Source of the DNA: Escherichia coli | GTDB taxonomy: Bacteria; Pseudomonadota; Gammaproteobacteria; Enterobacterales; Enterobacteriaceae | Direction: 5' to 3' (one strand) | Length of the DNA: 64,000 nucleotides | NCBI RefSeq assembly: GCF_003334385.1 | Contig: NZ_QOWN01000006.1 | In this document: piece by piece, positions 62,075 to 62,955 of the stretch | Position numbering within the stretch: position 1 is the first letter of the stretch | Layout of the letters: each line of letters opens with the position of its first letter | The notes under the pieces: generated by a model | The model's input: the letters and a program-made list of their open reading frames with translations, nothing else | Databases searched by the model: none | Told to the model about the DNA's origin: nothing | Translations under genes and position numbers: made by a program

Positions 62075-62955
62075 CCAAAAATGCGCCATAAAATACCGGA
62101 CAATCTTTCCTGATACAGATTATCACTGCACCAGCTATATAAAGACAAAATAATCTGCCCCCGTCCTGGATAATCTGCTATCTGCGCCAGCGTCCCGCCG
62201 CTCTACCTGTTCAGTGCTGCGCCAGTACCTGGCCCTTTAGTTTTTGGCCCTTTCAGGTCAGGCGCTGTTCCCCTTATCGCCCCCTTAACCTTTATGACCC
62301 TTTCCCTTTCTGGCGCAGCCAGTTTATTTGGAAATGCTCCATGACAGTCTGCACCAGACTGTATTTTCACCACAGGATAACAATCACAAAGTGCAAAAAA
62401 TAACATGAAGCACCGAAGATTCTTAATTCATATGAAGCAGGTTATTATGCCAAAAACCGTCGCAGCATTTTTATAAAATCATGAGGCATCCTGAGACCAT
62501 ATAATATATGTCACAGGATACGGAAAAACACAGAGAGAATTATTCAGATATAACCCTGTGCCAGAATTAATGTGATGCCCCGGTGAATTAACATTTTAAA
62601 ATTTTCCCAGCCCTGTAGTATTGGTAAAAATGATTGAAACACCTGTTATTAACAGAGAGCATTTCGTGTGATTACAGGGGTAATCACTATAATATTCCGA
62701 CAAACTATATTGGTTAAGCAGGAGAATCTGATCTGTTGATATTTATTCGTCATGCTGTAACGATATTTTCACAATATAAACCCGTTCGCCCCCTGCGCCA
62801 GATCCGGAACATAGGGTACGATAAATCGCTGTCGTTACGCAGTAACGTACTATTTTGAGCCATTCATGAATTCAGTCATTCCCTCTTCCAGCGGTAGCCA
62901 TACACCTGTTTCACCCAACGCCCGCGCCCGTCGCCATGACCCAGATCCGTCGCCG

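What the first reader, a model, noticed from the sequence alone, without database searches (positions are those of the whole stretch)
62174..62320. GC-rich CCCTT-repeat segment bracketed by a 9-bp inverted repeat
Inside an otherwise AT-rich spacer lies about 130 bp of GC-rich sequence with reiterated GGCCCTTT and CCCTTA units (ggccctttag, ggccctttcagg, ccccttatcgcccccttaacc, ccctttcccttt). It is flanked by ctgcgccag and ctggcgcag, and the same ctgcgccag 9-mer recurs at about 63807. It could be a decayed small mobile element, a CU-rich small RNA or a binding platform. The only ORF over it (62203-62406, minus) lacks an RBS.
Basis: seen in the sequence. Interest (0 to 1): 0.35.

Follow-up and report, generated by a model that had tools for sequence, protein, structure and literature searches.

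The report
Conserved DNA site of mobilizable island
The GC-rich CCCTT patch is a real, strongly conserved non-coding element that always lies just after the gene for an unusual integrase-like DNA-transfer enzyme in a family of mobilizable genomic islands, and it is studded with a strictly oriented 9-base motif, so it is most likely a protein-binding DNA site of the island's transfer machinery and not a transposon relic or a folded small RNA.

Summary
GC is 0.55-0.58 against about 0.35 in the flanks. There are six CCCTT in 110 nt (maximum 2 elsewhere in the window), a perfect 10-bp inverted repeat, and the same 9-mer again at 63807.

The setting is a decayed island at tRNA-Asn: a P4-type integrase pseudogene, this element, then a frameshifted Integrase_1/Phage_int_SAM_2 gene preceded by Rfam EFASI. 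That gene belongs to the MOB_M tyrosine-recombinase-like relaxases (SGI1 MpsA type).

The element follows this gene in 514 E. coli genomes, 9 of 9 loci from other species and 62 of 63 assessable metagenome contigs. It has an invariant 31-bp core, 5-9 strand-specific ARGG/CCCTT units of variable number, and flanking CTGCRCCAG sites.

That 9-mer forms a polar array over the whole module. Of 157 copies upstream of EFASI, 156 point one way; of 396 downstream, 390 point the other.

One-base indels exclude coding. Consensus folds are weak (-4 kcal/mol, 0-2 covarying pairs). The inverted repeat is lineage-specific. The element is single-copy and syntenic, so not a MITE.

Best reading (confidence 0.5): a cis-acting protein-binding DNA arm of the mobilization module, fossilised here. 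It matches no Rfam family, was unannotated in every E. coli hit listed, and no description turned up in the literature searched.

The parts
62246..62276 (-). Invariant 31-bp core. On the minus (gene-sense) strand it reads TAAGGGGAACAGCGCCTGACCTGAAAGGGCC. The family consensus is TAAGGGTAACAGCGCC.GACCGGAAA.GGCC, and it contains a variant 9-mer, CAGCGCC(A/T)G.
   Evidence: It is invariant or nearly so in 17 independently found sequences: 8 E. coli lineages and 9 other species. It recurs in 57 unique variants, although the metagenome copies were selected with this pattern.
62226..62309 (-). Body of the element. It consists of strand-specific ARGG units (CCCTT/CCTTT on the + strand), 5-9 per element, with a period of 6-11 nt.
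   Evidence: ARGG occurs 11.5 times per sequence on the sense strand and 0.18 times on the antisense strand. Unit copy number varies between relatives, e.g. L052 versus L053. There are six CCCTT here.
62217..62225 (+). CTGCGCCAG site flanking the body.
   Evidence: Conserved as CTGGCGCAG on the gene-sense strand in nearly all variants.
62310..62318 (-). Inverted CTGCGCCAG site.
   Evidence: It is in inverted orientation in Escherichia and L003-like lineages. In Klebsiella, Serratia, Cedecea, Salmonella arizonae and Erwinia it is replaced by a direct CTGGTGCAA.
62182..62190 (+). Further CTGCGCCAG site, on the side of the element away from the relaxase gene.
   Evidence: A second CTGGCGCAG about 22 nt beyond the first is conserved in most lineages.
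62349..62357 (+). CTGCACCAG site on the relaxase-gene side of the element.
   Evidence: Conserved as CTGGTGCAG in E. coli and L003-like lineages.
62126..62134 (+). Extra CTGCACCAG site. A degenerate copy, CTGCCCCCG at 62155-62163, is CTGCACCAG in other strains.
62793..62801 (+). CTGCGCCAG copy in the spacer just after the relaxase-like gene.
62986..63188 (+). Two CTGCGCCAG copies inside the relaxase-like coding sequence, at 62986-62994 and 63180-63188. They have the same orientation as the other copies on this side.
   Evidence: Across relatives, the in-gene copies are mostly Leu-Ala-Gln codons gained in a lineage-specific way. Third-codon-position entropy is 0.53 inside the sites and 0.90 outside, p = 0.002.
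63807..63815 (+). CTGCGCCAG copy at the 3' end of EFASI, in the 5' leader of the relaxase-like gene. It is part of the 14-nt inverted match to 62308-62321.
   Evidence: The equivalent copy is present in 9 of the 10 E. coli loci and in all 9 other-species loci.
62875..63759 (-). MOB_M-type (tyrosine-recombinase-like) relaxase gene. Here it is a pseudogene: a 1-nt deletion after 62977 removes the C-terminal region that includes the presumed catalytic tyrosine.
   Evidence: Pfam Integrase_1 at 1.9e-59 and Phage_int_SAM_2 at 4.7e-40 on the intact E. coli homologue. The frameshift is shown by comparison with L011. The family is identified through PMC10484663 and the preprint 10.64898/2026.01.13.699239.
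63814..63984 (-). Rfam EFASI motif directly upstream of the relaxase-like gene. The 9-mer flips orientation at or just upstream of this motif.
   Evidence: 59.5 bits; 85-107 bits in relatives.
60154..61518 (+). P4-type integrase pseudogene (internal stop), convergent with the relaxase-like gene. tRNA-Asn at 60019-60091 marks the island end.
   Evidence: annotated 'tyrosine-type recombinase/integrase, internal stop' in E. coli cq9.
61549..61582 (.). Hairpin terminator after the integrase gene. In compact relatives it is all that separates the element from the integrase stop codon.
   Evidence: I11, 12-nt perfect arms. L015 4882-5060 shows the compact arrangement.

Best explanation
The patch is a cis-acting, protein-binding DNA element of the mobilization module of an integrative mobilizable island (IME) inserted at tRNA-Asn.

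The module, read in the direction of the relaxase gene, is:
- a probable oriT hairpin
- EFASI
- a MOB_M (tyrosine-recombinase-like) relaxase gene
- this element
- a terminator
- the stop of a convergent P4-type integrase gene

The element has three components: an invariant 31-bp core, a variable number of one-strand ARGG (CCCTT) units, and flanking copies of the 9-mer CTGCRCCAG.

That 9-mer is spread over about 2.7 kb. Its orientation switches at or just upstream of EFASI, so the copies on the two sides point towards each other.

Inferred mechanism: a module-encoded protein, most plausibly the relaxase through its N-terminal core-binding-like domain, binds the 9-mer. The element is then the distal landing pad, or arm, of a looped relaxosome-type complex that also includes the array beside the upstream oriT-like region. 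Its G-rich strand may in addition help recruit the helper element's coupling protein, as the G-rich tract does in the pIGRK oriT.

Shown: conservation, linkage to the relaxase gene, motif polarity, absence of coding, and absence of conserved folding. Inferred: which protein binds, the looping, and the role in transfer.

In this window the element is a fossil, because both the integrase and the relaxase genes are broken.
For: Linkage:
- A homologue is present in 514 of 5426 complete E. coli genomes and was unannotated in all 40 hits listed.
- It sits in the same slot in islands at tRNA-Asn, tRNA-Thr and tRNA-Asp.
- nhmmer finds it directly after the relaxase stop in 9 of 9 loci from other species, E 1e-10 to 1e-43, at 61-89% protein identity.
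- 62 of 63 assessable metagenome contigs carry the relaxase gene upstream on the same strand.
- It stays with the relaxase gene in L002, where no integrase gene is annotated.

Selection on the DNA sequence:
- The core is invariant while the flanks are replaced and the distance to the gene ranges from 53 to about 900 nt.

Motif array:
- Across 48 non-redundant loci, the ratio of sense to antisense copies is 156:1 from -800 to -200 and 6:390 from -200 to +2000. The background is about 0.03 copies per 200 bp.
- Copies inside the coding sequence show reduced synonymous variation and lineage-specific gains.

Family assignment:
- Pfam Integrase_1 plus Phage_int_SAM_2.
- PF12835 is the signature used for the SGI1 MpsA relaxase class.
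- MOB_M relaxases are reported to be next to an integrase in 96% of cases.

Precedents:
- The SGI1 oriT is a 125-bp GC-rich stretch with inverted repeats near mpsA.
- The pIGRK oriT needs a G-rich tract for transfer but not for nicking.
Against: - No binding, nicking or transfer data exist for this element; its function is inferred from anatomy alone.
- In SGI1, pIGRK and pCW3 the oriT lies upstream of the relaxase gene, whereas this element lies downstream.
- The closest characterised relative examined, SGI-4 (49% relaxase identity), has neither the element nor the 9-mer array. A STAXI motif lies downstream of the gene there, after one intervening ORF.
- The binding protein could instead be the Ner/SfsB-like regulator or the unknown 153-aa protein encoded upstream.
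- The element lies inside or just beyond the relaxase 3' UTR, so an RNA role cannot be excluded.
- The invariance seen in the metagenome set is partly circular, because that set was retrieved with the core pattern.
Confidence: 0.5

Rival explanations
1. The element is itself the origin of transfer. The tyrosine-recombinase-like relaxase would nick within the invariant core, for example after ACCCTT on the + strand, by analogy with type IB topoisomerases that cleave after CCCTT.
For: It is GC-rich, about 130 bp long, adjacent to the relaxase gene and carries repeats, like the SGI1 oriT. The 31-bp core is invariant. YCCTT pentamers lie on one strand only. The topoisomerase IB cleavage pentamer and the shared catalytic fold are recalled from memory and were not tested here.
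Against: The known oriTs of this relaxase class lie upstream of the gene. A better positional candidate exists upstream of EFASI: a conserved hairpin, GCGTCACTT(N20)AAGTGACGC, which is also present in SGI-4. The small hairpin around the core is not conserved, because its left arm varies freely. No similarity to the element was found in the SGI-4 locus.
Confidence: 0.15
2. It acts as RNA: an unstructured, purine-rich 3'-UTR segment or processed small RNA of the relaxase transcript. This could be a protein or RNA sponge, or a transfer co-factor like the SGI1 sgm-sRNA.
For: The element is always on the same strand as the relaxase gene and lies before the shared terminator in compact loci. The strand asymmetry is extreme. 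SGI1 mobilization needs a self-encoded RNA. No terminator-like site lies between the gene and the element on that strand in the window.
Against: There is no conserved secondary structure or covariation on either strand and no Rfam match. The distance from the stop codon varies from 53 to about 900 nt, with unrelated AT-rich inserts. The flanking 9-mer also occurs in coding DNA and, in the opposite orientation, upstream of EFASI, which points to DNA-level recognition. The slot equivalent to sgm-sRNA is already occupied by EFASI. No promoter signal above chance was found.
Confidence: 0.15
3. It is a single-strand initiation site used on the transferred strand in the recipient, functionally replacing the STAXI motif found downstream of the relaxase gene in related conjugative elements.
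For: In a Pantoea plasmid a STAXI motif follows the relaxase gene directly. In SGI-4 one follows it after one intervening ORF. The element's features are strand-specific. Rfam's own note raises a single-stranded-DNA role for STAXI (quoted in PMC12370729).
Against: Known single-strand origins depend on stable hairpins, and none is conserved here. There is no similarity to STAXI. The idea is positional only.
Confidence: 0.08
4. It is a decayed MITE or insertion-sequence end, or a fragment of a former gene.
For: There is a 10-bp inverted repeat with CAGT on both outer sides in this lineage, and it lies in a decayed island.
Against: The element occurs at most twice per genome, and in every copy examined it sits in the same slot. 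Neither the inverted repeat nor the CAGT is conserved in other lineages. There is no match in the plasmid or phage collections. One-base indels among close relatives, together with an ORF lacking a ribosome-binding site, rule out coding. The invariant core argues for function, not decay.
Confidence: 0.02

Closest known systems
oriT of Salmonella Genomic Island 1 (125 bp, beside mpsA/mpsB; Kiss et al. 2019, PMC6414798)
   Same: Both are GC-rich non-coding stretches of about 125-130 bp with repeat motifs. Both are tightly linked to a tyrosine-recombinase-like (Pfam Integrase_1) relaxase gene in an integrase-bearing mobilizable island. An RNA element (sgm-sRNA there, EFASI here) lies next to the relaxase gene.
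   Different: The SGI1 oriT lies upstream of mpsA, whereas this element lies downstream of the gene. Here the MpsB-like and MpsA-like domains are fused in one protein. Sequence similarity to the SGI1 oriT could not be tested because AF261825 was not available. The inverted repeats here are not conserved across lineages.
G-rich tract of the pIGRK oriT (MobK relaxase; Nowak et al. 2021, PMC8152469)
   Same: Both are G-rich, one-strand-biased islands in AT-rich surroundings next to a tyrosine-recombinase-like relaxase gene. In pIGRK the tract is needed for transfer but not for nicking.
   Different: The pIGRK tract is upstream of mobK and is predicted to form a G-quadruplex. Here a canonical four-tract G3 pattern occurs in only 3 of 57 variants, and the G4Hunter median is 1.28.
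STAXI and EFASI Rfam motifs around 'integrase' genes of enterobacterial conjugative elements
   Same: They share the neighbourhood. EFASI is directly upstream of the same gene family. STAXI lies directly after the gene in a Pantoea plasmid and after one intervening ORF in SGI-4.
   Different: There is no sequence or structure similarity to either motif, and unlike them the element has no supported fold.
Polar short-motif systems: KOPS pointing to dif for FtsK/XerCD, and TRS repeats in the clt locus for Streptomyces TraB (recalled from memory)
   Same: A short 8-9-bp motif with near-absolute strand polarity converges on a site where a tyrosine-recombinase-type enzyme is expected to act.
   Different: The array spans only about 2.7 kb. 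No translocase is known to read it, and the helper-type element examined (SGI-4) lacks it. The comparison is an analogy only.
Arm-type site arrays of lambda-type attP intasomes (recalled from memory)
   Same: Oppositely oriented arrays of a roughly 9-bp site flank a central site that is acted on by a tyrosine-recombinase-fold enzyme.
   Different: The scale is about ten times larger. The protein lacks an arm-binding domain: Pfam shows only SAM-like and catalytic domains. No 9-mer copy lies between the tRNA and the integrase start, where the attL arm would be.

Membership tests
oriT of MOB_M (tyrosine-recombinase-like relaxase) systems | Physically linked to a MOB_M relaxase gene | tested here: met
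   Next to an Integrase_1 + Phage_int_SAM_2 gene in E. coli, in 9 of 9 loci from other species and in 62 of 63 assessable metagenome contigs.
oriT of MOB_M (tyrosine-recombinase-like relaxase) systems | Lies in the intergenic region upstream of the relaxase gene, as in SGI1, pIGRK and pCW3 | tested here: not met
   The element is downstream of the stop codon in every locus examined. The upstream slot holds EFASI and a conserved hairpin.
oriT of MOB_M (tyrosine-recombinase-like relaxase) systems | Conserved inverted repeats needed for function | tested here: inconclusive
   A 10-bp inverted repeat is present in Escherichia-type lineages but is replaced by direct repeats in the compact-lineage genera. 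The small hairpin around the core is not conserved.
oriT of MOB_M (tyrosine-recombinase-like relaxase) systems | Sequence similarity to an experimentally defined oriT (SGI1, SGI-4) | tested here: not met
   No core-like sequence occurs in the SGI-4 locus L022 or in plasmid loci L023 and L024, even with mismatches allowed.
oriT of MOB_M (tyrosine-recombinase-like relaxase) systems | Required in cis for conjugative mobilization and nicked by the relaxase | not testable with these tools
   Needs mating assays and nick mapping.
Structured small RNA or cis-regulatory RNA (Rfam-type family) | Conserved secondary structure supported by compensatory changes | tested here: not met
   RNAalifold gives -8.1 kcal/mol with 1 compensatory pair for 17 sequences. 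For 57 sequences it gives -4.0 and -3.7 kcal/mol with 0 and 2 covarying pairs. The K. indica copy has z -0.66.
Structured small RNA or cis-regulatory RNA (Rfam-type family) | Match to a described RNA family | tested here: not met
   Only noise-level hits at E up to 10.
MITE / insertion-sequence remnant | Terminal inverted repeats with target-site duplication, in multiple dispersed copies | tested here: not met
   At most 2 copies per E. coli genome, all on chromosomes, and every copy examined lies in the same slot after the relaxase gene. The inverted repeat and the flanking CAGT are lineage-specific. No plasmid or phage matches.
Protein-coding fragment | Reading frame preserved among relatives | tested here: not met
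   Single-base indels occur within the core among E. coli lineages and between genera. The only ORF has no ribosome-binding site.
G-quadruplex element, as proposed for the pIGRK oriT | Four G3+ tracts with short loops, conserved across the family | tested here: inconclusive
   Only 3 of 57 variants have loops of 12 nt or less, and 17 of 57 with loops of 15 nt or less. The G4Hunter maximum has a median of 1.28, with 10 of 57 at 1.5 or above. The window-type sequence scores 1.6.
Polar guide motif (KOPS- or TRS-like) | Near-absolute strand polarity that switches at a defined site | tested here: met
   Sense to antisense ratios are 156:1 upstream and 6:390 downstream of the switch at about -200, across 48 non-redundant loci.
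Polar guide motif (KOPS- or TRS-like) | Read by a DNA translocase | not testable with these tools
   No candidate reader was identified. The helper-type element SGI-4 lacks the motif.

The most novel reading that the evidence does not exclude
The 9-mer CTGCRCCAG is a polar guide or assembly signal, in the manner of KOPS, that converges on the transfer origin of a whole family of mobilizable islands. The CCCTT-rich element with its invariant core is then a second site of action of the tyrosine-recombinase-like relaxase. That could mean a nick or termination site cleaved after ACCCTT, as type IB topoisomerases cleave after CCCTT. Under this reading these relaxases would work on two distant sites joined by a loop, a mode not described for any conjugative relaxase.
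Probability: 0.12. Interest if true: 0.8.

Novelty: new variant of a known kind. Interest (0 to 1): 0.55.

Why it matters
A 2026 preprint reports that tyrosine-recombinase-like (MOB_M) relaxases are the commonest relaxases on the chromosomes of the species it surveyed. [quoted passage not shown] How these relaxases recognise and process DNA is largely unknown.

This element and the polar 9-mer array around it are conserved across at least ten enterobacterial genera. About one E. coli genome in ten carries the element, in islands seen here with type VI secretion, Rhs, DNA-phosphorothioation or toxin-antitoxin genes.

Together they give concrete, short DNA targets for binding, nicking and deletion experiments. 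Such experiments could show how these islands are mobilized. They also suggest that searching only upstream of the relaxase gene may miss cis-acting sites.

Tried and rejected
1. Structured RNA. Rfam gave no match at gathering thresholds or at E up to 10. Single-sequence folds and RNAalifold on 17 and 57 sequences showed no conserved structure.

2. A small hairpin, GCGCT-AAGGGTAAC-AGCGC, around the core looked promising among the 17 sequences. It failed in the 57 variants because its left arm varies freely.

3. Invertible segment between the 14-nt inverted matches at 62308-62321 and 63804-63817. All loci show one orientation, and 363 of 435 E. coli hits are collinear. The 14-nt match is lineage-specific.

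4. MITE or IS. BLASTN found nothing in the plasmid or phage collections, and the element is single-copy and syntenic.

5. Coding. Indels rule it out.

6. Integrase arm sites. There is no 9-mer between the tRNA and the integrase start, and the element persists where no integrase gene is annotated.

7. An analogous repeated motif around the relaxase genes of SGI-4, a Pantoea plasmid and a Caballeronia plasmid. None was found.

8. Core-like sequences in those loci. None was found.

9. Conserved G-quadruplex. Not conserved.

10. Promoter and terminator scans were no better than shuffles.

11. Pfam, NCBIfam and PADLOC searches on the neighbouring 153-aa protein returned nothing.

12. The paper reporting the SGI-4 oriT (DNA Research dsaf023) is not held. 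The SGI1 sequence was not obtainable, so direct comparison with experimentally defined oriTs was not possible.

13. A literature search for the 9-mer strings returned only primers.
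Full report
**What is in the window**

The window is Escherichia-type chromosome: it contains rseX and four tRNA-Asn genes. After the tRNA-Asn at 60019-60091 comes a small island.
- A P4-type integrase gene is split by an internal stop (60154-61518, + strand).
- An AT-rich non-coding stretch follows (61520-62870).
- On the minus strand lies a gene annotated in RefSeq relatives as 'integrase domain-containing protein' (62875-63759).
- That gene is preceded by the Rfam motif EFASI (63814-63984, minus strand, 59.5 bits).

The finding lies in the AT-rich stretch.

**Checking the observation**

- GC rises to 0.55-0.58 in 62150-62299, against 0.28-0.38 on both sides.
- CCCTT occurs six times in 110 nt on the + strand, and never more than twice in any other 110-nt stretch of the window.
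- The inverted repeat is 10 bp and perfect, 62216-62225 with 62310-62319.
- The 9-mer recurs at 63807, inside a perfect 14-nt inverted match to 62308-62321.
- The ORF 62203-62406 exists and has no Shine-Dalgarno sequence.

One caution applies to the 9-mer. Its complement, CTG-GCG-CAG, encodes Leu-Ala-Gln in preferred E. coli codons, so it is common in coding DNA, with 11 copies in the other 60 kb. Seven copies in 1.6 kb, five of them non-coding, is still far above that background.

**Conservation**

A homologue of 62150-62420 is present in 514 of 5426 complete E. coli genomes at 78-100% identity. All copies are on chromosomes, with at most two per genome, and all 40 hits listed were unannotated.

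In ten annotated E. coli loci the element always lies downstream of the 'integrase domain' gene. This holds in islands at tRNA-Asn, tRNA-Thr and tRNA-Asp. Among the loci examined, genes seen next to the module include Rhs, type VI secretion, DNA phosphorothioation and toxin-antitoxin genes.

The alignment shows a core that is far better conserved than its flanks, together with single-base indels, which rules out coding.

**Identity of the neighbouring gene**

The intact E. coli protein matches Pfam Integrase_1 (PF12835, 1.9e-59) and Phage_int_SAM_2 (PF12834, 4.7e-40). PF12835 is the signature used for the atypical relaxase MpsA of Salmonella Genomic Island 1 (PMC10484663).

A 2026 preprint (10.64898/2026.01.13.699239) names this class MOB_M. 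It reports that MOB_M is the commonest chromosomal relaxase in the species it studied and that 96% of these genes lie next to an integrase. It notes that they are occasionally annotated as integrases.

The protein here is 49% identical to the SGI-4 protein that the preprint used as a seed. I therefore read the island as an integrative mobilizable element.

In this window the element's host island is dead. The integrase has an internal stop. The relaxase gene has a 1-nt deletion after 62977 that removes its C-terminal part, including the presumed catalytic tyrosine.

**Breadth of the element**

A protein-based scan of one genome per species returned nine loci:
- Escherichia whittamii
- E. albertii
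- Serratia marcescens
- Klebsiella indica
- Enterobacteriaceae bacterium RIT693
- Cedecea colo
- Pseudocitrobacter vendiensis
- Salmonella enterica subsp. arizonae
- Erwinia mallotivora

An HMM built from the E. coli core finds the element in all nine, directly after the relaxase stop codon.

In the compact form (K. indica, L015 4882-5060) the whole space between the convergent relaxase and integrase genes is taken up by four things: a CTGGTGCAA site, about 110 nt of element, a CTGGCGCAG site, and a shared terminator. Escherichia lineages have extra AT-rich DNA inserted on both sides of the element.

A pattern scan of metagenome contigs with the core gave 67 loci. Of the 63 with enough flank to judge, 62 have the relaxase gene upstream on the same strand, usually with a convergent integrase downstream. 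The distance from the stop codon to the core ranges from 53 to about 900 nt. The single exception, L025, is a deletion remnant.

**Anatomy of the element**

On the gene-sense strand (the window's minus strand) the element has three components.
- An invariant block, TAAGGGTAACAGCGCC.GACCGGAAA.GGCC (window 62246-62276).
- On both sides of it, 5-9 ARGG units with a period of 6-11 nt. Their number varies between close relatives: L052 has two more GGCTTAAAA units than L053, and L041, L064 and L084 have fewer.
- Flanking copies of CTGCRCCAG.

ARGG occurs 11.5 times per sequence on the sense strand and 0.18 times on the other strand.

The invariance within the metagenome set is partly by construction, because that set was retrieved with the core pattern. 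The 17 sequences found independently by BLAST or by protein similarity show the same invariance.

**The 9-mer array**

Across 48 non-redundant loci aligned on the relaxase start codon, CTGCRCCAG occurs about 11 times per locus within roughly 2.7 kb.
- From -800 to -200 there are 156 copies in the sense orientation and 1 in the antisense orientation.
- From -200 to +2000 there are 6 sense copies and 390 antisense copies.
- The background is about 0.03 copies per 200 bp.

The switch lies at or just upstream of EFASI, so the two arrays point towards each other. Copy density peaks at three places: just upstream of EFASI, at the EFASI 3' end, and at the element.

Copies inside the coding sequence are mostly Leu-Ala-Gln codons. 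Different lineages have gained them at non-conserved residues (for example LAQ versus ITK, RAL or VVE). Third-codon-position variation is lower inside these sites than outside, 0.53 versus 0.90 bits, p = 0.002. This indicates selection on the DNA word itself.

The inverted bracket around the CCCTT body exists in Escherichia-type and L003-type lineages. In the compact-lineage genera the corresponding site is in direct orientation. The inverted repeat is therefore not a defining structural feature.

**RNA or DNA**

No Rfam family matches the element, even at E = 10 on short inputs. The fold of the window copy (z about -3) is driven by the lineage-specific inverted repeat. The K. indica copy folds no better than shuffled sequence on either strand, z -0.66.

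RNAalifold gives the following.

| Set | Strand | Energy (kcal/mol) | Pairs with change on both sides |
|---|---|---|---|
| 17 sequences | sense | -8.1 | 1 |
| 57 variants | sense | -4.0 | 0 |
| 57 variants | antisense | -3.7 | 2 |

A small hairpin around the core seemed plausible among the 17 sequences but failed in the 57, because its left arm varies freely.

Four observations favour recognition as DNA:
- the absence of conserved structure
- the variable distance from the gene
- the unit-number variation
- the presence of the flanking 9-mer in coding DNA and, in the opposite orientation, on the far side of EFASI

An unstructured RNA function is not excluded.

**Comparison with known systems**

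In SGI1 the oriT is a 125-bp GC-rich segment with inverted repeats. It lies upstream of mpsA, with the essential sgm-sRNA between the oriT and the gene.

In pIGRK the oriT lies upstream of mobK and needs a G-rich tract for transfer but not for nicking.

In the present family the upstream slot holds EFASI. About 60 nt beyond EFASI, just outside the window, is a conserved hairpin, GCGTCACTT(N20)AAGTGACGC. The same inverted repeat is recognisable in SGI-4. That hairpin is the better positional candidate for the oriT proper.

SGI-4 and a Pantoea plasmid have the order STAXI - EFASI - relaxase gene - STAXI (one ORF intervenes before the second STAXI in SGI-4). They lack both this element and the 9-mer array.

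The element is therefore specific to one clade of this relaxase family, with relaxases at 51-100% identity to the E. coli query. It occupies roughly the position where relatives carry STAXI.

A conserved G-quadruplex is not supported. The canonical pattern occurs in only 3 of 57 variants, and the G4Hunter median is 1.28, although the window-type sequence scores 1.6.

**Verdict**

The element is real, functional-looking and not described in anything I could search. The best-supported reading is a protein-binding DNA arm of the mobilization module.
- I put about 0.9 on it being a selected cis element of this module.
- I put about 0.5 on the specific mechanism: binding of the 9-mer by a module protein, probably the relaxase, with the element cooperating with the upstream array around the oriT.

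The rivals are as follows.
- It is itself the nick site, about 0.15.
- It works as unstructured RNA, about 0.15.
- It is a single-strand initiation signal replacing STAXI, about 0.08.
- It is a transposon or coding remnant, about 0.02.

None of the mechanistic steps can be shown with sequence alone. The experiments that would decide between them are listed under next steps.

Noticed in passing
window 63814-63984 (-); L015 3808-3936; L022 2697-2845; L023 2729-2878: The Rfam motif EFASI sits directly upstream of the MOB_M relaxase gene wherever it was scanned for (the window and six relatives), so the 'integrase' in its name is really this relaxase class. It occupies the position that the essential sgm-sRNA holds in SGI1, which suggests the two may be functional counterparts. 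The 9-mer array flips orientation at or just upstream of it.
   Followed up: partly
L011 21899-21937 (about 50 nt beyond the window end); L015 3666-3710; L022 about 2497-2540: A conserved inverted repeat, GCGTCACTT(N20)AAGTGACGC, lies about 60 nt upstream of EFASI within a highly conserved block. The same repeat is recognisable in the SGI-4 conjugative element. It is the best positional candidate for the real origin of transfer.
   Followed up: partly
L022 2051-2221 and 4525-4675; L023 2151-2299 and 3940-4090; weak hit L019 3239-3386: STAXI motifs flank the EFASI-relaxase pair in SGI-4 and in a Pantoea plasmid. A sub-threshold STAXI-like hit overlaps the upstream 9-mer array in Salmonella arizonae. 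The island family may therefore have replaced STAXI with other cis elements.
   Followed up: partly
window 61600-62110: This AT-rich stretch has iteron-like GGTGAAAACC-ATCAAT repeats, a 124-nt imperfect duplication (61728-61851 and 61947-62070) and long palindromes (61756-61819, 61989-62024). It is found only in the same set of E. coli island-bearing genomes (452 genomes, median 2 places per genome) and is absent from compact relatives. Its function is unknown.
   Followed up: partly
window 62875-63759 (-) and 60154-61518 (+): Both mobility genes of the island are inactivated here. The relaxase gene has a 1-nt deletion after 62977 that removes the C-terminal tyrosine region, and the integrase has an internal stop. 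The non-coding element is nevertheless 100% identical to copies in other strains.
   Followed up: yes
relaxase coding sequence, e.g. window 62986-62994; codon-alignment columns 102, 132, 207, 291 and 789: Copies of the 9-mer inside the gene are Leu-Ala-Gln codons that different lineages have acquired at otherwise variable residues. The DNA motif appears to shape the protein sequence.
   Followed up: yes
L015 2128-2332; L019 2127-2331; L020 2144-2344; L029 2945-3166 (-): Related islands carry C4-antisense-RNA-like and IsrK-like RNA motifs. They also carry a Ner/SfsB-like helix-turn-helix gene and an unknown 153-aa protein within about 2 kb upstream of the relaxase gene. These are candidate regulators, or candidate readers of the 9-mer.
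   Followed up: partly
window 62212-62215 and 62320-62323: CAGT lies immediately outside both arms of the 10-bp inverted repeat, which looks like a target-site duplication. It is not present in other lineages, so it is coincidental.
   Followed up: yes
window 62791-62803 and 62984-62996: An identical 13-mer, CCCTGCGCCAGAT, occurs once just after and once just inside the 3' end of the relaxase gene. Both copies are extended versions of the 9-mer.
   Followed up: no
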